A stretch of DNA of 64,000 nt. It comes from Candidatus Gottesmanbacteria bacterium RIFCSPHIGHO2_01_FULL_46_14. GTDB taxonomy: Bacteria > Patescibacteriota > Microgenomatia > UBA10105 > UBA927. Under the pieces are notes generated by a model. The model was not told the DNA's origin. It searched no databases and saw only the letters and a program-made list of their open reading frames with translations. Shown one piece after another: positions 47,330 through 54,351 of the stretch (the first letter of the stretch is position 1; every line of letters begins with the position of its first letter). The position numbers were made by a program, and so were the translations under genes. The stretch covers positions 898-64,897 of the forward strand of contig MFJJ01000010.1 of assembly GCA_001780895.1 (NCBI GenBank). Reading direction: 5' to 3'.

Positions 47330-48284
47330 AACTGATAAGGATTAACGCTAAAGTTATGACTAAAATTGTCGGCTCTGCGCTGCCGGAAACCGGTACCCCG
47401 GAGTCTGTGGCAACAACAAATGATTCGGTGGCCGTGTCGCTGCCGTCGCCAGCTGTGGCGACAATGGTATGGGGACCGGGTTCGAGTGGAGTTTGGGGTG
47501 TATATACCCAATTGCCGTTGGCGTCTGCAGTGACGATAACGGTGGATGGGGTCGAGTAAATCGTGAGAGTAACTTTTGAACCGGGAGCGGCCTTTCCTTT
47601 GATCGTTGGTCTGTCGCGTTGCGCTGCGGAGCTCGCTGTGGGTGTCGTAATATCCAAAACAGCGGAAGCGGAGGCTTCAGCTGAGAGAGAGGCATCTATT
47701 TCATCGTTGAGACTAAGACTTGCCGAGGGGGTTGCGGCCGGTCCTGTACGGTCAGTCGATGCCCCCGTAATCGTAATTTTTCCCGGCGTCGTACCGGTCA
47801 ATACATTTGTCGATCCTTCTCCAAGGCCACTTACGAGCGTAGTACTTGCAAAACTTACGGTAATCGGTGTACTCGTGGGAGCAAGCGCTTTAAATCGGAC
47901 AACCGCTACTGTTCCCTGGCCATGAACCGGTTGGGCATTGCTGGGCGCTCCGACCGTGATGGACGCTGTACCTGCCTCCACAAGTCCCGACGTTAAGACG
48001 TTGGGGAAAAGGGCGCCGTTGGTAAGCGTAATCGCCTCAAGTTTTTCCGGATCAAAGGCGATATGGAGCTCAGTTGCAATTACCTGGTTGTCGCCGGTAT
48101 TGATATGCACTTCCATAGAAAATTCACTCCCAACCGCTTTGGCGGTTGATGCCGGAGAAAAAGCAAGCGTCGTGGCTGGCGCTGCTTTTTTGCGCAACTC
48201 CTGTCTCTGAGAGACCAAATAAATCGTTACTGGTATTGCGACCATGACGACAAGAATACTCACCATAAGAAGGAGTTTTTTCAT
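47298..48284 (-). CDS. surface protein with cohesin/Ig-like domains, C-terminal TM anchor
   Basis: Signal/TM segment, two beta-sandwich-like blocks, C-terminal hydrophobic helix. Confidence 0.3.
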   Translation of the reverse strand: MKKLLLMVSILVVMVAIPVTIYLVSQRQELRKKAAPATTLAFSPASTAKAVGSEFSMEVHINTGDNQVIATELHIAFDPEKLEAITLTNGALFPNVLTSGLVEAGTASITVGAPSNAQPVHGQGTVAVVRFKALAPTSTPITVSFASTTLVSGLGEGSTNVLTGTTPGKITITGASTDRTGPAATPSASLSLNDEIDASLSAEASASAVLDITTPTASSAAQRDRPTIKGKAAPGSKVTLTIYSTPSTVIVTADANGNWVYTPQTPLEPGPHTIVATAGDGSDTATESFVVATDSGVPVSGSAEPTILVITLALILISFGIVYGKLSY

Positions 48285-48315
48285 CTATAAACTATTATGT
48301 GTGAAAAAATCTCTA

Positions 48316-48344
48316 TTGACAAGGGTTAGCACTCGATGTATAGT
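48316..48344 (+). promoter_or_regulatory. sigma70-like promoter (TTGACA-17 bp-TATAGT) of the hrcA operon
   Basis: TTGACA at about 48316-48321 and TATAGT at about 48339-48344. It overlaps CIRCE. Confidence 0.5.
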
Positions 48345-48352
48345 ACTGCTAA
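48326..48352 (+). promoter_or_regulatory. CIRCE operator (TTAGCACTC-N9-TACTGCTAA)
   Basis: Matches the CIRCE consensus TTAGCACTC-N9-GAGTGCTAA with 2 mismatches. It lies 10 nt upstream of hrcA. Confidence 0.65.
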
Positions 48353-48361
48353 TTCTAGATT

Positions 48362-49096
48362 ATGGATCAAATATCCAATCTTTCAGACCGTCAACTTCAT
48401 ATCCTCAAAGCAATTATCGAGGAATATATTGCAACTGCACAACCCGTTGGTTCAGAGACGCTCGATAAAAAGTACAACCTGGGAGTTTCTCCTGCAACTA
48501 TCCGCAATGAAATGGCCCGGCTTGCTGATATGAAGCTCCTCAACCAGCCCCACACGTCTGCGGGTCGAACACCCACCCCGGTAGCACTCAAGTATTACGT
48601 CGAAAACCTCATGAAAACCAAAGATATGTCCGTGGCAGATGAAGTTTCCGTCAAAGAAAAGATTTGGGATTACCGGCAGGAAGTGGATAAACTCCTTCGG
48701 GAGGCAACCAAGACGTTGGCGGAAAAAACAAAAGCACTTGCTGTTACTGCAACTGGTGATGGAGACCTCTATTACTCGGGAGCCGCCAATATCCTTGACA
48801 TGCCCGAATTTTACGACTTTGAGCTCACCCATCATTTATTGGCAGCGCTGGACCGATATGATTTTTGGTGGGACCTTCTGGAAGCCAATCAAGATCCGTT
48901 CTCTATTCTTCTTGGCGAAGAGTTTGGAGCGCGCAGTATGCTTGATCAATGCGGCTATGTCTACGCAAAGTTTACAACGCCGCATTTATCCGGATCAATC
49001 GGCGTCGTTGGCCCTTCCAGATTAAACTATCAATATGTTATTCCTGTTGTTCGCTATTTAGGTGGACTCATCGATGAAATGGGGAGAAACTGGTGA
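48362..49096 (+). CDS. hrcA: heat-inducible transcription repressor HrcA
   Basis: LSDRQLHILKAIIEEYIATAQPVGSETL start. 244 aa. Confidence 0.8.
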   Translation: MDQISNLSDRQLHILKAIIEEYIATAQPVGSETLDKKYNLGVSPATIRNEMARLADMKLLNQPHTSAGRTPTPVALKYYVENLMKTKDMSVADEVSVKEKIWDYRQEVDKLLREATKTLAEKTKALAVTATGDGDLYYSGAANILDMPEFYDFELTHHLLAALDRYDFWWDLLEANQDPFSILLGEEFGARSMLDQCGYVYAKFTTPHLSGSIGVVGPSRLNYQYVIPVVRYLGGLIDEMGRNW

Positions 49097-49506
49097 AAAA
49101 ACAAGTCGATCAACCCAGTGAAGAATGGAAAAATAAATATTTGCGGGCGCTTGCTGATTATCAGAACCTTGAGAAACGCACGCGCGATGAAATTGGTGAA
49201 GTAAGAAAATTTGCCTCCGAAGTGGTTTTAGCGAGATTGCTGCCCGTTGTAGATACATTGAAAAAGGCCAAGGATCATATTAAGGATCCCGGATTAGATT
49301 TAACATATAAGGAACTCCTTGCTGTTCTTGAAGAGCAGGGAGTTGAAAAAATTGAGATCGTCGGGCGTCAATTTAACCCGCATGAAATGGAATGTATAGA
49401 GGTTATTGAGGGTAAAAACGACGAAGTCGTCGAAGAGGTATTGCCAGGATATCGATTTAGAGGGAAAATAATAAGAGTGGCCCAGGTAAAAGTAGGAAAG
49501 GAGTAA
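49093..49506 (+). CDS. grpE: nucleotide exchange factor GrpE
   Basis: [14 protein letters not shown] motif. 137 aa. Confidence 0.8.
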
Positions 49507-49513
49507 AAAATAT

Positions 49514-51421
49514 ATGGCAAAAATAATTGGTATAGATCTTGGAACGACAAATTCCTGTGTTGCAGTTATGGAGGGGGGAGCTCCCAAAGTGATTCATTCC
49601 GCCGAGGGGAGAAACGTTATCCCCTCTGTCGTTGATCCCATCAAAAATATTGTTGGGGATGTAGCAAAGCGGCAGATGGTGATTAACCCGAAGTCGACGA
49701 TATTTTCCGTCAAGCGCTTGATGGGGCGAAAGTACTCTGATTCAAGCGTTCAGACTGACAGTAAGTGGCTTCCGTATACGATAAAAGCTGGAAAGAATGA
49801 TATGGCCGTTGTGGAAGTGGAAGGTCGCCAGTTTACGCCACAGGAAATTTCAGCAAAAATTCTTTCTAAAATCAAAGCTGATGCCGAGAAATATTTGGGG
49901 GATACCGTCAAGCAAGCGGTCATTACGGTTCCTGCCTATTTTGATGACAGTCAGCGGCAAGCAACCAAACAGGCGGGTGAGATTGCCGGGCTTGAAGTCC
50001 TTCGTATTCTCAATGAGCCTACGGCAGCAGCCCTTGCGTATGGGTTAGATAAGAAAAATGTTCATACGATTGCCGTCTATGATTTGGGTGGCGGCACGTT
50101 TGACATTTCTATTTTAGAGCTGGGTGAGGGGGTCTATGAAGTAAAAGCCACCAACGGCGATACGCATCTAGGCGGCGATGATTTTGACAAAAAGATTTTG
50201 GATTGGATTGCAGATGAGTTTAAGAAAGAACACGGTGTCGATTTGCGAAAAGATCCGCAGGCCCTCCAAAGACTTCGCGACGCGGCAGAGAAAGCAAAGA
50301 TCGAACTCTCTAGCTCAATGGAAACCGAGATTAATCTTCCGTTCATAACCCAGGGCAAAGAAGGGCCGCTCCATTTAGTGATGAAGCTCTCGCGGTCTAA
50401 GCTCGAGCAAATTGTTGACGACCTCATCGTTAAATCCATTGAACCGGTTAAAAAGTGTCTGTCAGACGCCAAAATGAAAACGAGCGATATTAGCGAAGTG
50501 GTTATGGTTGGAGGAATGACGCGGATGCCCAAGGTTTTTGAGACGGTCAAGAGTTTTTTTGGTAAGGATCCCAATCGGTCTGTTAACCCAGATGAAGTGG
50601 TTGCAGTCGGCGCGGCGGTACAGGCAGGAGTCTTGGCTGGCGACGTGAAGGACGTCGTTTTACTTGATGTAACGCCATTGACATTGGGCGTAGAGACGCT
50701 TGGCGGCGTATCGACACCGCTTATCGTCAGAAACACCACGGTTCCGACGAGCAAATCAGAGATTTTTTCAACAGCCGCTGATAGCCAGACATCGGTTGAA
50801 ATTAATGTCCTTCAGGGAGAGCGACCGATGGCAGCAGACAATAAATCGCTCGGACGATTTGTGCTTTCGGGTATTCCGCCGGCGCCTCGCGGGGTTCCGC
50901 AGGTCGAGGTTACCTTTGATATCGACGCAAGTGGAATTCTTAATGTGACGGCCAAAGACAAGGCAAGCGGCAAGGTCAGTACGATAAAGATTACCGGATC
51001 AACCGGTCTATCCAAAGACGAAGTTAGTAAGATGAGGAAAGAGGCAGAGGAGCATGCTGCGGAAGACACAGAGAAAAAAGAAAAGATCGAGGTCAGAAAC
51101 CGCGCTGACAATTTGATATATACGGCCGAGAAGACATTGAAAGATATGGGTGACAAGGTCAAAGAAGAAGATAAGAAGGCTGTTGAAGAGAAGAGCAAAG
51201 CGCTCAAAGATATCTTGGAGACGGGATCAAGGGAGGATATTGAAGCCAAAACCAATGAACTGTCTGAAGCGGTCCAAAAAGTCGGCGCCGCAGCGTACGC
51301 GCAGCAGCCAGCTGACAGCTCCCAGCAATCAGCAGGACAAACCGATGATTCTGGAAATGGAAAGAAAAAAGACGAGAAAAAAGATGAAAAGAAAGTGGAG
51401 GAAGGGGAAGTGGTGAGCTAA
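49514..51421 (+). CDS. dnaK: molecular chaperone DnaK
   Basis: [14 protein letters not shown] and DLGGGTFD motifs. 635 aa. Confidence 0.95.
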
Positions 51422-51721
51422 AATATGGAACGATCTCTAGTTGCTCTTACTCCAGAGAAGGCATCAAATCAGTTATTCCAATTAGGGTACGATAAAATTG
51501 AGAATGTACCAGTTGGTAGGGGTAATGATTATCTAACAGCTTTGGTAAAAATAGCGGGGGGGGGGCATATCAAGGTATTGATATAGGTACAGTAATGAAA
51601 ATTATTCATACTGAAAATAACGCGAGAGAAAATACACAGGACAGACCGTAAGAAAAACTATTGTAAGATGTTAGGGCGCGCGGGAGCGCGCCTATTTAGT
51701 ATAATTAAAGAAATTTTGGAT

Positions 51722-52243
51722 ATGAAAAAACAAAAACGCCGTGTTGTCTATTCATTTATAGACAGTCAAAACTTGAACCTCGGTACAAGCAAGGACATCA
51801 ATCGTCAAGGAAAACGGATTTATACTGGCTGGAAACTTGACTTTAAAAAATTCAGACAGTATCTCAAGGACAAGTTCCGCGTAAATAAAGCCTTTTTATT
51901 CATTGGTTACATTCCCCAACATAAACCATTGTATAGATATCTCCGTTCTTGTGGATATGAAATGGTATACAAACCGACAGTGAAAGATGATCAAGGAAAA
52001 CCAAAAGGAAATGTTGATGCAGAACTCGTACTTCATGCCGCAGCCATTGAATTTACACGGTATGAAAAGGCAGTCATTGTTGCAGGCGACGGTGATTATC
52101 GGTGTCTTTATGAGTTTCTGATAAAACGTGGCAAACTGCTTCGAATTGTTATCCCAAATTCAAAGACTGAGTCGTCACTTCTTAAGCCTTTCCAAGCGTA
52201 CAAAACGTTTCTTGAAAATGAGAAGCAAAAGTTAAAGATCTAA
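51722..52243 (+). CDS. NYN domain (LabA-like, PIN-related) protein
   Basis: VDAELVLHAA...VIVAGDGDY motifs. Start trimmed to MKKQKRR, which is preceded by TATAAT. Confidence 0.5.
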   Translation: MKKQKRRVVYSFIDSQNLNLGTSKDINRQGKRIYTGWKLDFKKFRQYLKDKFRVNKAFLFIGYIPQHKPLYRYLRSCGYEMVYKPTVKDDQGKPKGNVDAELVLHAAAIEFTRYEKAVIVAGDGDYRCLYEFLIKRGKLLRIVIPNSKTESSLLKPFQAYKTFLENEKQKLKI

Positions 52244-52362
52244 CCATTAAAATTGGGAGGCGTTACTTATAACACGTAGTCATAAGCTCGTTTCTCCCTG
52301 ATGATGAATCTATTATATAACACAAAAGCAAGTAAATCAAAATATCCATAAATTTACGTATT

Positions 52363-53244
52363 ATGGCAACAAAAAGAGATTACTATGAAGTTTTAGGGGT
52401 TTCGAAGAATGCTTCAAGCGCAGAAATTAAGGCTGCATACAGGAAACTTGCGCTGGAGTGGCATCCGGATAGGAACAAAGCGGCCAATGCCAACGAAAAA
52501 TTTAAAGAGATTAATGAAGCCTACGCGGTGCTTTCTGATGATAAAAAAAAGCAAACGTATGACCAGTTCGGACATGCTGCCTTTCAGCCGGGAATGGGGG
52601 GGCAGTCCCGCGAAGCGGGATCCGGCTTCGCCGGACAAGGTCCTTTTTCCTATTATTATTCCACCAATGGTGGCGCTTCGCCGTTTGGTGACATAGGCCT
52701 CGATCCGTTTGAAATTTTTGAACAATTCTTTGGCGGCGGTTTCGGACGAACGTCCGCCCGTCGGCAAAGACAGGTCTATGAGATTAATATCGATTTTATG
52801 GAAGCGGCAAAAGGCGTTACTAAAGAGGTTCATGTGCCGCGAGGTCAGGCAGGGGATGGGTCAGTCAGAAAAACGATTAAGATTCCGGCTGGTGTTGATT
52901 CCGGCTCGCGCGTTCGTTTTGACGACTTTGACATCGTTGTTGATGTAGTACCAGACAAGCAATTTAAGCGCGAAGGTGACGATATCATCGTTGAAAAAGA
53001 GATTTCCTACTCCCAAGCTGCTCTTGGAGATACGATTGAAGTGCCGACTATTGATGGAGGGCTCCATATTCGCATTCAACCCGGTACCCGACCCGGCACA
53101 CTTATTCGCCTTCGCGGTCGAGGCGTCCCGCATGTTGGTGGCTCGGGTCGCGGCGACGAATACGTCCGCATCCAAATCAAAATCCCCACGCACCTCTCGC
53201 GTCGTCAGCGTGAACTCCTCGAAGAACTTGAGGAGATTGACTGA
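52363..53244 (+). CDS. dnaJ: DnaJ-family co-chaperone lacking the zinc-finger domain
   Basis: J domain (DYYEVLGV...HPDRN), G/F region, two C-terminal beta-sandwich domains, and no CxxCxGxG repeats. Confidence 0.8.
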
Positions 53245-53287
53245 ACGCATGTAGGCGCTATATAATAAGGAAGTGTTTTGAGGAAAA

Positions 53288-53309
53288 GGTGGGATAGCCC
53301 ACCTTTTTT
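53288..53309 (+). terminator. intrinsic terminator GGTGGG-ATAG-CCCACC-TTTTTT between dnaJ and nusA
   Basis: 6-bp GC-rich stem, 4-nt loop, and a 6-T run. Confidence 0.65.
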
Positions 53310-53322
53310 ATTAAGAAAACCT

Positions 53323-54351
53323 ATGCCAGCAATCGTACGAAGTGAATTTGCATTAGCCTTAAATCAAGTCGCCACAGAGCGTGGGATTGATCCATCTGTG
53401 GTTCTCGAGACGATTAAGGCCGCTATTTTGGCTGCCTATCGAAAAGACTACGGGGCTGAAGAGCTCGAGCTTTTGACCGTGGATCTCAACCCCGATACGG
53501 GTGAATCGAAGGTACTCAAAGAAGGCCGCGACGTAACCCCACCAGGTTTTGGCCGTATTGCCGCCCAAACTGCTAAGCAAGTGATTCTCCAACGCATCCG
53601 TGAAGCAGAAAAACAAGCGGTATTAGCTGATTTTCAGACAAAGGTAGGTTCGATTGTGCCTGGTATGGTGCTTCGCTTTGACGGGCCGAACGTGATTGTT
53701 GATATAGGTCGTACGCAGGCAGTCATGCCGCCCCAAGAGCAAAATCAGGGAGAGCGGTATCACCTCAATGGTCGTCTCACTTTTTATATCGAGGGTATCC
53801 GCGAGACGATGCGCGGTAATGAGATCATCGTTTCCCGAGCACACAAAGGACTTGTTGAGGGACTGTTTAAGCGGGAAGTGCCGGAAGTAGCTTCAGGAGC
53901 AGTAGAACTTCGTGTTATAGCCAGAGAACCCGGCGGAAGAACAAAAGTCGCGGTATATTCTACCCAATCAGGTGTTGATCCCGTGGGATCTTGTGTTGGA
54001 CAAAAAGGTGTTCGCGTTCAGGCGGTCATTGGTGAGCTTGGCATTAATGAAAAGGTTGATATTATCCAGTGGAGCGATGATGCCCATCAGCTGATTACCG
54101 CAGCGTTGGCTCCGGCAAAAGATCTTGAGGTTATTTTAAACGAAAAAAAGAAATCAGCAGAAGTACTTGTGCCGGAAGATCAACTTTCATTAGCCATTGG
54201 TCGTGATGGGCAGAACGTTCGTTTAGCCGCAAAGCTCACGGGTTGGAAAATCGATATACGAGGAAAAGGCGGCAAAGCGGCATCAACGCAAAATACGAAC
54301 GATGATACTGCAGATCCCAAAAACAAGAAAAAAAAGCCAGCAAGCGAGTAG
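53323..54351 (+). CDS. nusA: transcription termination/antitermination factor NusA
   Basis: S1 and KH domain pattern. GRDGQNVRLA block. Start trimmed to MPAIVR. Confidence 0.85.
   Translation: MPAIVRSEFALALNQVATERGIDPSVVLETIKAAILAAYRKDYGAEELELLTVDLNPDTGESKVLKEGRDVTPPGFGRIAAQTAKQVILQRIREAEKQAVLADFQTKVGSIVPGMVLRFDGPNVIVDIGRTQAVMPPQEQNQGERYHLNGRLTFYIEGIRETMRGNEIIVSRAHKGLVEGLFKREVPEVASGAVELRVIAREPGGRTKVAVYSTQSGVDPVGSCVGQKGVRVQAVIGELGINEKVDIIQWSDDAHQLITAALAPAKDLEVILNEKKKSAEVLVPEDQLSLAIGRDGQNVRLAAKLTGWKIDIRGKGGKAASTQNTNDDTADPKNKKKKPASE

What the first reader, a model, noticed from the sequence alone, without database searches (positions are those of the whole stretch)
51422..52243. hrcA-grpE-dnaK-dnaJ operon interrupted by an NYN-domain gene, a G9 homopolymer and a GC-only hairpin
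A 300-bp spacer and an NYN/LabA-like (PIN-related RNase) gene with its own TATAAT lie between dnaK and dnaJ. The spacer holds a 52-codon ORF (51425-51583) containing a run of nine G (about 51556-51564). Such a tract is a slipped-strand hotspot and is atypical for this base composition. It also holds a perfect GGCGCGC-GGGA-GCGCGCC hairpin at about 51675-51692. The segment looks like an insertion into an otherwise conserved operon.
Basis: seen in the sequence. Interest (0 to 1): 0.5.

Follow-up and report, generated by a model that had tools for sequence, protein, structure and literature searches.

The report
Nuclease-plus-small-RNA cassette inside heat-shock operon
In an uncultured groundwater bacterium, a nuclease gene and a previously undescribed small RNA gene facing it have landed between two heat-shock genes. 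Next to them is a tiny gene whose reading frame depends on a run of G's whose length differs between samples.

Summary
The sequence features are real, with one correction. The G run is G10 here (51556-51565), not G9.

The region is a composite of three unrelated things.

1. **GC hairpin and TATAAT (ancestral).** These are not part of an insertion. The same hairpin plus -10-like box lies between dnaK and dnaJ in at least 30 of 75 related Gottesmanbacteria.

2. **Short ORF (a real gene).** It belongs to a rare family of 75-85 aa proteins. In four lineages the gene follows dnaK directly. Only a G11 tract gives the full-length protein. Independent assemblies of this population carry G9 (7 contigs), G10 (11) and G11 (4). 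The G tract was the only indel in the nine assemblies aligned to the window.

3. **NYN gene (a true insertion).** None of the 75 relatives has it at this site. It arrived together with a convergent small RNA gene of about 59 nt (52305-52247, minus strand). That gene has its own TTGACA/TATAAT-type promoter, a covarying hairpin and a U tail. It sits at the 3' end of NYN genes across candidate-phyla bacteria and matches no Rfam family.

What the NYN-RNA pair does is inferred only. Interest is moderate to high.

The parts
48316..48352 (+). hrcA promoter (TTGACA-17-TATAGT) overlapped by a CIRCE inverted repeat
   Evidence: Promoter scan, 11 of 12 matches. CIRCE match with 2 mismatches, 0.02 expected by chance.
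48362..51421 (+). hrcA (48362-49096), grpE (49093-49506) and dnaK (49514-51421)
   Evidence: Pfam HrcA, GrpE and HSP70. Most relatives show the same gene order.
51425..51651 (+). Small-protein gene starting 3 nt after the dnaK stop. It is frameshifted in this window (53 aa, stop at 51584-51586). With G11 it encodes 75 aa ending at window position 51651.
   Evidence: Homologs of 76-85 aa align over both halves only in the G11 frame. The C-terminal half in the window's other frame hits the family profile at E = 1.7e-9. The intact 75-aa allele occurs in 4 assemblies.
51556..51565 (+). Poly-G tract, G10 here. It varies G9/G10/G11 among assemblies of the same population and sets the reading frame of the small gene.
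51675..51692 (+). Ancestral dnaK-dnaJ intercistronic hairpin with a GC-only stem and a GGGA (GNRA-type) loop. It is a likely leaky terminator or 3' stabiliser of the dnaK transcript.
   Evidence: The same hairpin is present in at least 30 of 75 relatives and in L099.
51700..51705 (+). TATAAT box inherited from the ancestral spacer. In relatives, TTGATATAAT sits 9-11 nt before the dnaJ ATG. Here it lies 16 nt before the NYN ATG.
   Evidence: Homology to NYN loci elsewhere starts at about 51705.
51722..52243 (+). NYN (LabA-like, PIN-related) nuclease gene, 173 aa, the first part of the inserted cassette
   Evidence: Pfam PF01936, E = 5e-13. The acidic residues are invariant across 23 homologs. 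PDB relative 2qip, E = 3e-10. More than 7,900 homologs, the named ones all from candidate-phyla bacteria.
52247..52305 (-). Convergent small RNA gene of about 59 nt, the second part of the cassette: leader AUCAUCA, bulged hairpin (P1 GGGAG/CUCCC, CG/CG, a 9-bp inner stem here, loop UACGU), then a U-rich tail ending 4 nt from the NYN stop
   Evidence: Covariance model hit at 52307-52245, 54 bits, E = 4e-12. Fold -19.0 kcal/mol, z = -4.8. Covariation across 61 distinct sequences. No Rfam match.
52312..52340 (-). Promoter of the small RNA: -35 TTGATT (52340-52335), 17-nt spacer, -10 TATAAT (52317-52312)
   Evidence: The same promoter at the same distance scores at least 10 of 12 in 78% of 49 loci, against 1.6% of shuffles.
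52363..53244 (+). dnaJ (293 aa, no zinc-finger domain), preceded by an ATAAAT box 9 nt before the ATG
   Evidence: Pfam DnaJ and DnaJ_C only. Sequence read.

Best explanation
The dnaK-dnaJ junction of this Candidatus Gottesmanbacteria genome is a composite of three independent layers.

**Layer 1: ancestral spacer.** A GC-only hairpin with a GNRA-type loop is followed by a -10-like box just upstream of dnaJ. Its most likely role (inferred) is a leaky terminator or 3' stabiliser that sets the DnaK:DnaJ ratio, combined with an internal dnaJ promoter.

**Layer 2: a small gene coupled to dnaK.** It belongs to an unannotated family predicted to form three helices. A run of G's encodes its Gly-Gly-Gly loop. 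The run differs in length between samples (G9, G10, G11), and only G11 yields the full 75-aa protein. G9 and G10 truncate the protein before the third helix. I commit to slipped-strand mispairing at the DNA level as the cause. That makes the gene an ON/OFF switchable locus, and in most sampled populations it is OFF.

**Layer 3: a two-gene cassette.** It was inserted between the -10-like box and the dnaJ start codon, at about 51706-52341. It holds an NYN-domain ribonuclease gene and, tail to tail with it on the opposite strand, a small RNA gene of about 59 nt with its own sigma-70-type promoter and intrinsic terminator. The pair travels together through candidate-phyla bacteria in otherwise unrelated neighbourhoods. 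I propose (inferred, not shown) that the small RNA is a cis-antisense partner that limits NYN expression or activity. It would do this by pairing with the 3' end of the NYN message, which has to run through it to reach the next gene, here dnaJ.

**Shown:** the anatomy, the homology boundaries, conservation, covariation and the allele counts. **Inferred:** transcription of the RNA, what it does, and that the tract varies in DNA rather than only in the sequencing data.
For: **Insertion**
- 0 of 75 relatives have NYN between dnaK and dnaJ. The median gap is 88 bp, against 941 bp here.
- DNA homology to NYN loci elsewhere spans only window 51705-52341 (junction alignments).
- In L090, L094 and L097, NYN lies in a glycosyltransferase cluster.

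**Ancestral hairpin and -10 box**
- Present in at least 30 of 75 relatives, and in L099 after the homologous small gene.

**Small gene**
- Homologs P0122, P0123, P0127 and P0130 are intact at 76-85 aa.
- L104 and L185 have dnaK, the small gene and dnaJ tightly packed in that order.
- Both halves of the window copy hit the family profile, each in its own frame.
- The C-terminal half, read in the restored frame, differs from L099 at 61% of synonymous sites but only 23% of nonsynonymous sites.
- The structural model has pLDDT 82, and helix 3 lies downstream of the tract.

**Tract variation**
- It is the only indel in the nine assembly loci aligned to the window, the longest alignments spanning 7.6-12.9 kb.
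- G9 occurs in 7 contigs, G10 in 11 and G11 in 4. These come from different samples and assemblers and include contigs of 50, 63, 86 and 95 kb.

**Small RNA**
- The model hits 55 of 80 metagenome NYN loci at E < 0.001, including loci only about 50% identical in NYN.
- It gives no hit in 904 kb of related loci without NYN.
- 94% of cells are paired. There are 149 double-sided changes against 51 in shuffles, and 0 of 500 shuffles reach that number.
- 26 G-U pairs are valid only on the minus strand, against 7 valid only on the plus strand.
- The promoter scores at least 10 of 12 in 78% of loci, against 1.6% of shuffles.
- The base of the hairpin lies within -30 to +26 nt of the NYN stop in 58 of 61 hits.
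- Flanking genes are not shared among 77 loci.
Against: - No reads were available, so the tract variation is seen only in assembly consensus sequences. Homopolymers of this length are prone to errors in library preparation.
- The homolog in L099 is also out of frame, at a G6 tract. That fits slow pseudogenisation as well as it fits switching.
- No transposase, integrase, inverted repeats or clear target-site duplication flank the cassette. How it moved is unknown. A rearrangement within the genome is as possible as horizontal transfer.
- When the hairpin is folded alone, the plus strand is more stable in 42 of 49 loci. This is because of G-U pairs in the outer part, so strand assignment rests mainly on the promoter, the U tail and the inner-stem G-U counts.
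- The NYN protein is as conserved as DnaK across distant lineages and is almost absent from viral contigs. That fits a housekeeping enzyme better than a selfish toxin.
- Nothing here tests nuclease activity, toxicity or RNA-protein binding.
Confidence: 0.6

Rival explanations
1. The G-tract heterogeneity is an artefact. The real genome has G11 and an intact small gene, and polymerase stutter during library preparation or sequencing shortens the run in most assemblies.
For: - Only the longest homopolymer varies. Runs of 7-8 nt in the same contigs are stable.
- The shorter, defective lengths dominate, 18 of 22 contigs, which is the direction expected from stutter.
- The coding signal in the C-terminal half is intact.
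Against: - An assembly consensus needs a majority of reads. A 2-nt contraction (G9) reaching a majority in 7 assemblies is hard to get from stutter alone; this rests on general knowledge and was not measured here.
- Assemblies made by one group with one pipeline from neighbouring samples give G11, G10, G10 and G9.
- L099 is out of frame at a G6 tract, a length that is not error-prone.
Confidence: 0.25
2. The small gene is simply decaying. It lost function in the common ancestor of this species and L099, and the tract now drifts neutrally.
For: - Both species are out of frame at the same place but need different corrections.
- The family is very rare and patchy, with about seven members found among billions of proteins.
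- No relative among the 80 species representatives has the gene in its dnaK-dnaJ gap.
Against: - The part downstream of the frameshift has no further stops or indels in the restored frame.
- That part shows pS 0.61 against pN 0.23 between the two species.
- The intact allele exists in 4 assemblies.
- Start codon, coupling to dnaK and stop are all preserved.
Confidence: 0.2
3. Full-length protein is made from the G10 template by recoding. Either RNA polymerase slips on the C10 template run, or ribosomes shift by -1 on G GGG GGG. In that case the DNA length matters less than it seems.
For: - A -1 shift on the last two GGG codons of the G10 allele gives exactly the G11 product (reading).
- A 7-bp hairpin starts 1 nt after the tract.
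- Slippage on long homopolymers rescuing frameshifted genes is known from endosymbionts (from memory).
Against: - G9, G10 and the L099 G6 allele each need a different shift, so no single programmed event fits all of them.
- The downstream hairpin is weak, too close to the slippery site, and was not seen in L099 on reading the alignment.
- No expression data are available.
Confidence: 0.15
4. The conserved element after NYN works on the plus strand, as a structured 3' UTR or processing signal of the NYN message and not as a separate minus-strand RNA.
For: - The plus-strand hairpin is thermodynamically better in 42 of 49 loci.
- The outer part forms G-U pairs only on the plus strand.
- The NYN message must cross this region to reach the next gene.
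Against: - A near-consensus TTGACA-N17-TATAAT at a fixed distance and a U run after the hairpin exist only on the minus strand.
- Within the modelled structure, G-U pairs valid only on the minus strand outnumber the plus-only ones 26 to 7, and P1 is 100% paired on the minus strand.
- The window copy folds with z = -4.8 on the minus strand and z = -1.8 on the plus strand.
- The two readings are not exclusive.
Confidence: 0.15
5. The NYN-RNA pair is a housekeeping ribonuclease with its partner or substrate RNA, part of the core gene set of candidate-phyla bacteria. In this species it was merely relocated by a rearrangement. It is not a selfish or toxin-antitoxin-like element.
For: - There are more than 7,900 homolog clusters. 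Identity is about 70% both to members named Gottesmanbacteria and to members of other named lineages (Levybacteria, Shapirobacteria, Daviesbacteria, Parcubacteria), comparable to DnaK.
- There is only one good hit in 2.9 million viral contigs.
- The only defence-library hit is weak: PADLOC NYN, E = 0.0012.
- Three related loci share one location.
Against: - Neighbourhoods differ in nearly all of 77 loci.
- The gene is AT-rich relative to its flanks almost everywhere.
- This spot and the dnaJ-nusA spacer collect other small genes in relatives, including GIY-YIG and 23S rRNA intervening-sequence proteins.
Confidence: 0.35
6. NYN between dnaK and dnaJ is the ancestral arrangement, and the relatives lost it.
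For: None found, apart from the tidy co-orientation of the genes.
Against: - 0 of 75 relatives have it.
- The hairpin plus -10 box sits directly before dnaJ in relatives, and in this window it is split from dnaJ by the cassette.
- NYN lies elsewhere in three related loci.
Confidence: 0.03

Closest known systems
Bacillus subtilis-type hrcA-grpE-dnaK-dnaJ operon with CIRCE/HrcA control, a stem-loop after dnaK and an internal promoter before dnaJ (Homuth, Schumann and colleagues; from memory)
   Same: Same gene order. CIRCE overlaps the first promoter. A stable hairpin follows dnaK, and a -10-like box lies just before dnaJ.
   Different: - The stem here is a nearly invariant GGCGCG/CGCGCC across many species.
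- The -10 box is only 9-11 nt from the dnaJ ATG, implying an almost leaderless message.
- HrcA, GrpE and DnaJ are shortened, and DnaJ has no zinc finger.
- In this species the box is separated from dnaJ by the inserted cassette.
Poly-G/C contingency loci of Campylobacter, Neisseria and Helicobacter (phase variation by slipped-strand mispairing; e.g. PMC8355987, PMC5084427)
   Same: A G run of 9-11 inside a reading frame in a genome that otherwise avoids such runs. Different lengths occur in one population. One length is in frame (ON) and the others truncate the protein.
   Different: - The target is a small cytoplasmic-looking protein in a chaperone operon, not a surface or modification gene.
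- The organism is a free-living or episymbiotic groundwater bacterium.
- Reversibility and switching rate are untested.
- A search of the paper library for phase variation in candidate-phyla bacteria listed none.
Type I toxin-antitoxin pairs with 3'-overlapping convergent antisense RNAs (B. subtilis txpA/RatA, bsrG/SR4; from memory; reviews PMC8594479, PMC6563280)
   Same: A small RNA with its own promoter and terminator is transcribed towards the 3' end of a protein gene. In about 40% of loci it overlaps the last codons. The pair moves as a unit through varied contexts.
   Different: - The protein is a 173-aa NYN ribonuclease, not a small membrane peptide.
- The RNA has conserved unpaired nucleotides and a covarying stem, which points to a structure-specific partner more than to simple pairing.
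- No toxicity data exist.
Type III toxin-antitoxin systems (ToxIN, CptIN: an endoribonuclease held by an RNA it processes; from memory)
   Same: A ribonuclease gene is invariably linked to a short structured RNA gene.
   Different: Type III RNAs are tandem repeats upstream of the toxin on the same strand, separated by a terminator. Here there is a single RNA unit (two in L142), downstream and on the opposite strand.
LabA/DUF88 NYN proteins (Pfam PF01936; PDB 2qip, VPA0982)
   Same: Domain match above the Pfam threshold, conserved acidic residues, and a sequence match to 2qip.
   Different: This is a minimal single-domain form without the OST-HTH/LOTUS RNA-binding domain common in the family (from memory). 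It forms a very tightly conserved subfamily seen mainly in candidate-phyla bacteria, and it has an RNA gene attached.

Membership tests
HrcA/CIRCE heat-shock operon | Gene order hrcA-grpE-dnaK-dnaJ on one strand | tested here: met
   Pfam assignments. Most relatives show the same order.
HrcA/CIRCE heat-shock operon | CIRCE inverted repeat TTAGCACTC-N9-GAGTGCTAA at the promoter | tested here: met
   48326-48352, 2 mismatches, 0.02 expected by chance. It overlaps the -10 of the promoter found.
NYN domain (PF01936, LabA-like) | Profile match above the curated threshold | tested here: met
   50.2 bits against a cutoff of 24.2.
NYN domain (PF01936, LabA-like) | Conserved acidic residues of the PIN-like active site | tested here: met
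   D14, D99, D123 and D125 are invariant in 23 homologs. Their assignment as catalytic residues is from memory of the family.
NYN domain (PF01936, LabA-like) | Ribonuclease activity | not testable with these tools
   Needs biochemistry.
Phase-variable (contingency) locus | Long homopolymer inside a reading frame whose length sets the frame | tested here: met
   G10 at 51556-51565. G11 gives 75 aa, G10 gives 53 aa and G9 gives 51 aa.
Phase-variable (contingency) locus | Different tract lengths within one population | tested here: inconclusive
   Seen among 22 assembled contigs, but only at consensus level. No reads were available.
Phase-variable (contingency) locus | High-frequency reversible switching | not testable with these tools
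   Needs read-level or culture data.
Intrinsic terminator (hairpin 51675-51692) | GC-rich stem-loop | tested here: met
   7-8 bp GC stem; a 61-nt stretch around it folds at -18.1 kcal/mol.
Intrinsic terminator (hairpin 51675-51692) | Run of U directly after the stem | tested here: inconclusive
   The tail is UAUUUAGUAUAAU, which passes the lenient scan but is weak. L099 and the relatives with GIY-YIG inserts have better tails.
Programmed -1 ribosomal frameshift site | Slippery heptamer plus a stimulatory structure 5-9 nt downstream, conserved among relatives | tested here: not met
   The heptamer is trivially present. The hairpin is weak and lies 1 nt away. The alleles and L099 need different shifts.
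Type I toxin-antitoxin | Antisense RNA overlapping the toxin message | tested here: met
   Convergent geometry. The hairpin base lies -30 to +26 nt from the NYN stop in 58 of 61 hits. Transcription itself is inferred from the promoter and terminator.
Type I toxin-antitoxin | Toxin is a small hydrophobic peptide | tested here: not met
   The protein is a 173-aa soluble-looking NYN domain.
Type III toxin-antitoxin | Tandem RNA repeats upstream of the nuclease on the same strand | tested here: not met
   A single unit, downstream, on the opposite strand.
Transposable element or integrated island | Transposase or integrase, terminal repeats, target-site duplication | tested here: not met
   The 636-bp homologous unit holds only NYN and the RNA gene. 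The only hint of a duplication is a loose ATAAT/ATAAAT resemblance at the two junctions.
Any Rfam 15 RNA family (for the small RNA) | Covariance-model match | tested here: not met
   Nothing meaningful at E up to 10 on 52225-52365 or up to 1 on 48000-54000.

The most novel reading that the evidence does not exclude
The NYN ribonuclease and its convergent, covarying small RNA of about 60 nt form an undescribed two-component RNase-RNA system that is widespread in candidate-phyla bacteria. The RNA would be either a dedicated inhibitor or antisense controller of the nuclease (a new toxin-antitoxin-like type), or its guide or substrate in a lineage-specific RNA-processing step. Separately, the poly-G tract would be the first candidate phase-variable switch reported in these bacteria, and it would act on a small protein tied to the DnaK chaperone operon.
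Probability: 0.35. Interest if true: 0.8.

Novelty: new variant of a known kind. Interest (0 to 1): 0.6.

Why it matters
Candidate-phyla bacteria have tiny genomes and almost no experimentally characterised regulatory RNAs.

- **The RNA-nuclease pair.** The small RNA gene has a clear promoter, terminator and covariation, and it is always attached to one highly conserved nuclease. That gives a concrete, testable RNA-protein pair in this group. It may point to a new way of controlling a PIN-like nuclease.
- **The G tract.** If its variation is real, these bacteria would use the same homopolymer switching known from pathogens, here acting on a protein linked to the main chaperone.
- **A practical lesson.** What looked like one 'insertion' is three layers of different age. 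The hairpin and TATAAT are ordinary operon parts.

Tried and rejected
- **Rfam.** Searches of the region returned only chance-level hits.
- **Short ORF against protein libraries.** Pfam, NCBIfam, PHROGs and PADLOC gave nothing for it, in either the 53-aa or the 75-aa form.
- **Mistyped query.** One word-indexed protein search was run with a query carrying one extra G. It found only the protein itself.
- **Structure of the small-protein family.** The model is confident (pLDDT 82), but no PDB fold match was better than E = 3. No function follows from it.
- **Short ORF as a carried-over gene fragment.** I tested whether it is a remnant of the gene upstream of NYN in other genomes. There is no similarity.
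- **Second copies in the window.** I looked for a second NYN copy, a second RNA copy, and the ancestral NYN neighbourhood. None is present.
- **Low GC as evidence of foreign origin.** Rejected, because NYN genes are AT-rich everywhere.
- **Phage origin.** Checked against viral contigs, with essentially no support.
- **Hammerhead, k-turn or C/D-box reading of the UGAUGA-like tail.** Considered by eye and dropped, because the required core nucleotides are not conserved.
- **Tiny ORF inside the small RNA of the window (MTTCYK).** Dropped, because its ATG is not conserved.
- **RNAalifold on a plain MAFFT alignment.** It missed the inner stem because of indels. A hand-specified structure on an equal-length subset was used to build the model instead.
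Full report
**What is in the sequence**

The window carries, on the plus strand:
- hrcA (48362-49096), grpE (49093-49506) and dnaK (49514-51421)
- a 300-bp spacer
- an NYN-domain gene (ATG at 51722, stop at 52243)
- a 119-bp spacer
- dnaJ (52363-53244), followed by nusA and infB

These assignments come from Pfam and the ORF table. A CIRCE operator (48326-48352) overlaps the -10 of a near-consensus promoter before hrcA. This is therefore a classical HrcA-controlled heat-shock operon.

The short ORF is 51425-51586 (53 codons). The G tract is ten G at 51556-51565, not nine. It is the only G or C run of eight or more in the 64 kb. The hairpin GGCGCGC-GGGA-GCGCGCC lies exactly at 51675-51692, and a 61-nt stretch around it (51655-51715) folds at -18.1 kcal/mol. 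By composition alone a G10 would turn up in about 5% of such windows, so the tract is interesting only for what follows.

**Origin**

The same DNA is found in a deposited Candidatus Gottesmanbacteria genome from aquifer groundwater (GCA_001779345.1). It also occurs in many independent assemblies of samples from that site.

**Is it an insertion?**

A scan of one genome per species found 80 loci with a related DnaJ (55-78% identical), mostly named Gottesmanbacteria. In 75 of them dnaK and dnaJ are on the same contig.
- None has an NYN gene between the two genes.
- The median distance from the dnaK stop to the dnaJ start is 88 bp, and 58 of 75 are at most 200 bp. The distance here is 941 bp.
- Seventeen relatives have gaps of 290 bp or more. 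These hold other small genes: GIY-YIG nucleases, 23S rRNA intervening-sequence proteins, DUF6941 and PHP-domain proteins.

The junction is therefore a recurrent landing site, and NYN is one of several occupants.

**The hairpin and the TATAAT are older than the insertion**

At least 30 of the 75 relatives have the same hairpin in their short dnaK-dnaJ spacer. Its core is GGCGCG...CGCGCC, and most loops are GAAA, GTAA, GGAA or GTGA. It is followed within a few bases by a TTGATATAAT-like box that ends 9-11 nt before the dnaJ ATG.

For example, L059 reads GGCGCGCTCCAGGCGCGCC-tatttgatataat-caatagatt-ATG(dnaJ). The window reads GGCGCGCGGGAGCGCGCC-tatttagtataat-, and then the NYN leader begins.

The hairpin and the box are thus ancestral parts of the operon. 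The cassette entered between the box and the dnaJ start. A weaker ATAAAT box still sits 9 nt before the dnaJ ATG.

By analogy with the Bacillus subtilis dnaK operon (from memory), I read the hairpin as a leaky terminator or 3' stabiliser for the dnaK transcript, and the box as an internal promoter. The U tail in the window is poor, so read-through is likely.

**The short ORF is a real, frameshifted gene**

An exhaustive search of 1.84 billion representative proteins found four small homologs (49-85 aa), and a profile search added one more. The intact homologs are 76-85 aa long.

The window sequence aligns with them over its whole length only if one G is added. G11 gives MERSL...KIAGGGAYQGIDIGTVMKIIHTENNARENTQDRP (75 aa), which ends at window position 51651. 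In the window as given, the N-terminal half and the C-terminal half hit the family profile in two different frames (E = 8e-24 and E = 1.7e-9).

In two other lineages (L104, L185) the intact gene is packed between dnaK and dnaJ. In L185 the dnaK stop overlaps its ATG, and dnaJ starts 9 nt after its stop. In a third lineage (L099, DnaK 87% identical to the window) the layout is:
- the gene follows dnaK by 6 nt
- it is out of frame at the homologous place, a G6 tract
- the same GC hairpin follows
- a GIY-YIG gene comes next

Four of about seven known members therefore sit directly after dnaK. The gene belongs to the operon, not to the insertion.

The C-terminal 26 codons, read in the restored frame, differ between the window and L099 at 61% of synonymous sites but only 23% of nonsynonymous sites. 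That part has been kept as coding sequence.

A structure prediction for the family gives a confident three-helix protein (pLDDT 82). The third helix lies after the tract, so the 51-aa and 53-aa products lack it. No library gives the family a name, and no solved structure resembles it.

**The tract length differs between assemblies**

Nine assembly loci from these look-ups were aligned to the window, the longest over 7.6-12.9 kb. The only indel in them is at the tract: G9, G10 or G11.

The protein collection holds the three products as exact sequences:
- the 51-aa form (G9) on 7 contigs
- the 53-aa forms (G10) on 11 contigs
- the intact 75-aa form (G11) on 4 contigs

These contigs include ones of 95, 86, 63 and 50 kb and come from different samples and assemblers. 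Assemblies made by one group from neighbouring samples give G11, G10, G10 and G9.

I take this as real length variation by slipped-strand mispairing (about 0.6-0.65), which makes the gene switchable. The main rival is stutter in library preparation on a true G11 (about 0.25). Only reads can decide. Recoding by polymerase or ribosome slippage could add to either reading. It is not a clean fit, because each allele needs a different shift.

**The inserted unit is NYN plus a small RNA gene**

The NYN protein has more than 7,900 homolog clusters. The ones that carry an organism name are all from candidate-phyla bacteria. Identity is 68-90% among the best 120 and about 70% to several differently named lineages. 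The acidic residues of the PIN-like site are invariant, and the nearest solved structure is a LabA-like protein, 2qip.

In three related loci the gene lies between an unannotated gene of 431-464 aa and glycosyltransferase genes. One of these contigs (L097) is the same chromosome as the Gottesmanbacteria locus L015.

DNA similarity between those loci and the window runs from 51705 to 52341. That covers NYN plus about 98 nt after its stop, and nothing else.

Those 98 nt are strikingly conserved. Read on the minus strand they form a compact gene:
- a -35 box (TTGATT, 52340-52335)
- a 17-nt spacer
- a -10 box (TATAAT, 52317-52312)
- a conserved leader, AUCAUCA
- a bulged hairpin, followed by a U-rich tail that ends 4 nt from the NYN stop codon

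**Evidence for the RNA**

I collected 80 further NYN loci from metagenomes (49-88% identical). I then built a covariance model from 18 equal-length copies.
- The model finds the element at the 3' end of NYN, always on the opposite strand. It hits 55 of the 80 loci at E < 0.001, including NYN genes only about 50% identical to this one, and it hits the window at 54 bits.
- It finds nothing in 904 kb of related loci that lack NYN.
- On the resulting alignment 94% of cells are paired, all seven inner-stem pairs covary, and two of the five outer pairs covary. There are 149 cells with changes on both sides, against 51 in shuffles (0 of 500 shuffles reach this), and slid controls collapse. This alignment was fitted to the model, so these counts lean towards the structure.
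- The promoter matches at least 10 of 12 consensus positions, at a fixed distance, in 78% of 49 loci. The figure for shuffles is 1.6%.
- G-U pairs that work only on the minus strand outnumber the plus-only ones 26 to 7.
- The window copy folds with z = -4.8 on the minus strand and z = -1.8 on the plus strand.
- Against this, the bare hairpin is more stable on the plus strand in 42 of 49 loci, because of G-U pairs in its outer part. The plus-strand version may therefore also matter as part of the NYN message.
- The hairpin base lies within -30 to +26 nt of the NYN stop in 58 of 61 hits, and it overlaps the last codons in roughly 40% of them.
- Neighbouring genes are not shared. The commonest flanking family occurs in 6 of 77 loci.
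- No Rfam family matches, and searches of the paper library found no description of it.

**How it most likely works**

What is shown is a two-part cassette, nuclease gene plus convergent RNA gene, kept together over wide divergence and placed here between the dnaJ-proximal box and dnaJ.

The rest is inferred:
- No plus-strand terminator was found between NYN and dnaJ. The plus-strand hairpin also has no U tail. In other genomes the next gene starts just past the RNA's -35 box.
- The NYN message therefore probably reads through the RNA gene into the next gene, which here is dnaJ.
- The small RNA would then be perfectly complementary to that intercistronic stretch.
- My preferred reading (about 0.45) is a cis-antisense partner that limits NYN output or activity. 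The geometry resembles the 3'-overlapping type I toxin-antitoxin pairs of Bacillus.
- The conserved unpaired nucleotides suggest that a protein, most simply NYN itself, recognises the RNA. That is closer in spirit to type III systems.

The pair fails defining features of both classes: the protein is not a small peptide, and the RNA is not an upstream repeat array. I therefore do not file it under either.

The very high conservation of the protein and its near absence from viral contigs keep open a housekeeping role as an RNase with its partner RNA (about 0.35). How the cassette moved is also unknown, since there is no transposase, no inverted repeats and no clear target duplication.

**Verdict**

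NYN is an insertion. The hairpin and the TATAAT are ordinary ancestral operon parts. The short ORF is a genuine operon gene with a frame-setting, length-variable G tract.
- The most interesting result lies just outside the given coordinates: a well-supported, apparently undescribed small RNA gene that always accompanies this nuclease.
- I rate the whole as a new variant of known kinds (homopolymer switch; antisense RNA paired with a nuclease), with interest 0.6.

Noticed in passing
window 51675-51705; relatives L010-L089 (dnaK-dnaJ spacers): The GC hairpin has a nearly invariant GGCGCG/CGCGCC stem, mostly GNRA loops, and a TTGATATAAT box 9-11 nt before the dnaJ ATG. This holds across species whose DnaJ is only 55-78% identical. 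Such sequence constancy is unusual for a plain terminator. It hints at a specific RNA- or DNA-binding partner and at an almost leaderless dnaJ message.
   Followed up: partly
L010-L089, dnaK-dnaJ and dnaJ-nusA spacers: Both spacers are recurrent landing sites for small genes in this group. 17 of 75 dnaK-dnaJ gaps are 290 bp or longer. The inserts include GIY-YIG, 23S rRNA intervening-sequence protein, DUF6941 plus an unknown partner, and PHP-domain proteins. Several dnaJ-nusA gaps reach 2-4 kb.
   Followed up: partly
window 52363-53244: DnaJ is only 293 aa. It has the J domain and the C-terminal domain but no zinc-finger domain. HrcA (244 aa) and GrpE (137 aa) are also short. The relatives share these reduced forms.
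   Followed up: no
L142:1607-1672 and 1741-1805: One metagenome locus carries two tandem copies of the small RNA after its NYN gene.
   Followed up: no
window 51567-51584: A 7-bp AU-rich hairpin (AUAUCAA-GGUA-UUGAUAU) starts 1 nt after the G tract. It is too close and too weak for a classical frameshift stimulator, and it was not seen in L099 on reading the alignment.
   Followed up: partly
window 50563-51145 (3' half of dnaK): Single-base differences between assemblies cluster in dnaK, and many contigs break between 50644 and 51735. This suggests that strain mixtures or cross-assembly with related species fragment the assembly graph here.
   Followed up: no
L090, L094, L097 (gene upstream of NYN, 431-464 aa) and L097:1-2607: In three related loci NYN follows an unannotated gene of 431-464 aa by 0-4 nt, in one case with overlapping stop and start. 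That gene in turn follows a protein of about 1,000 aa, which in L097 has a weak Wzy_C match. NYN is followed by a run of glycosyltransferases. This is the likely older home of the cassette.
   Followed up: no
L098 and L100-L103: Members of the small-protein family that are not next to dnaK lie after ribosomal protein L25 (L098). In Shapirobacteria-type contigs they lie next to a 23S rRNA intervening-sequence protein and a UvrD-like helicase.
   Followed up: no
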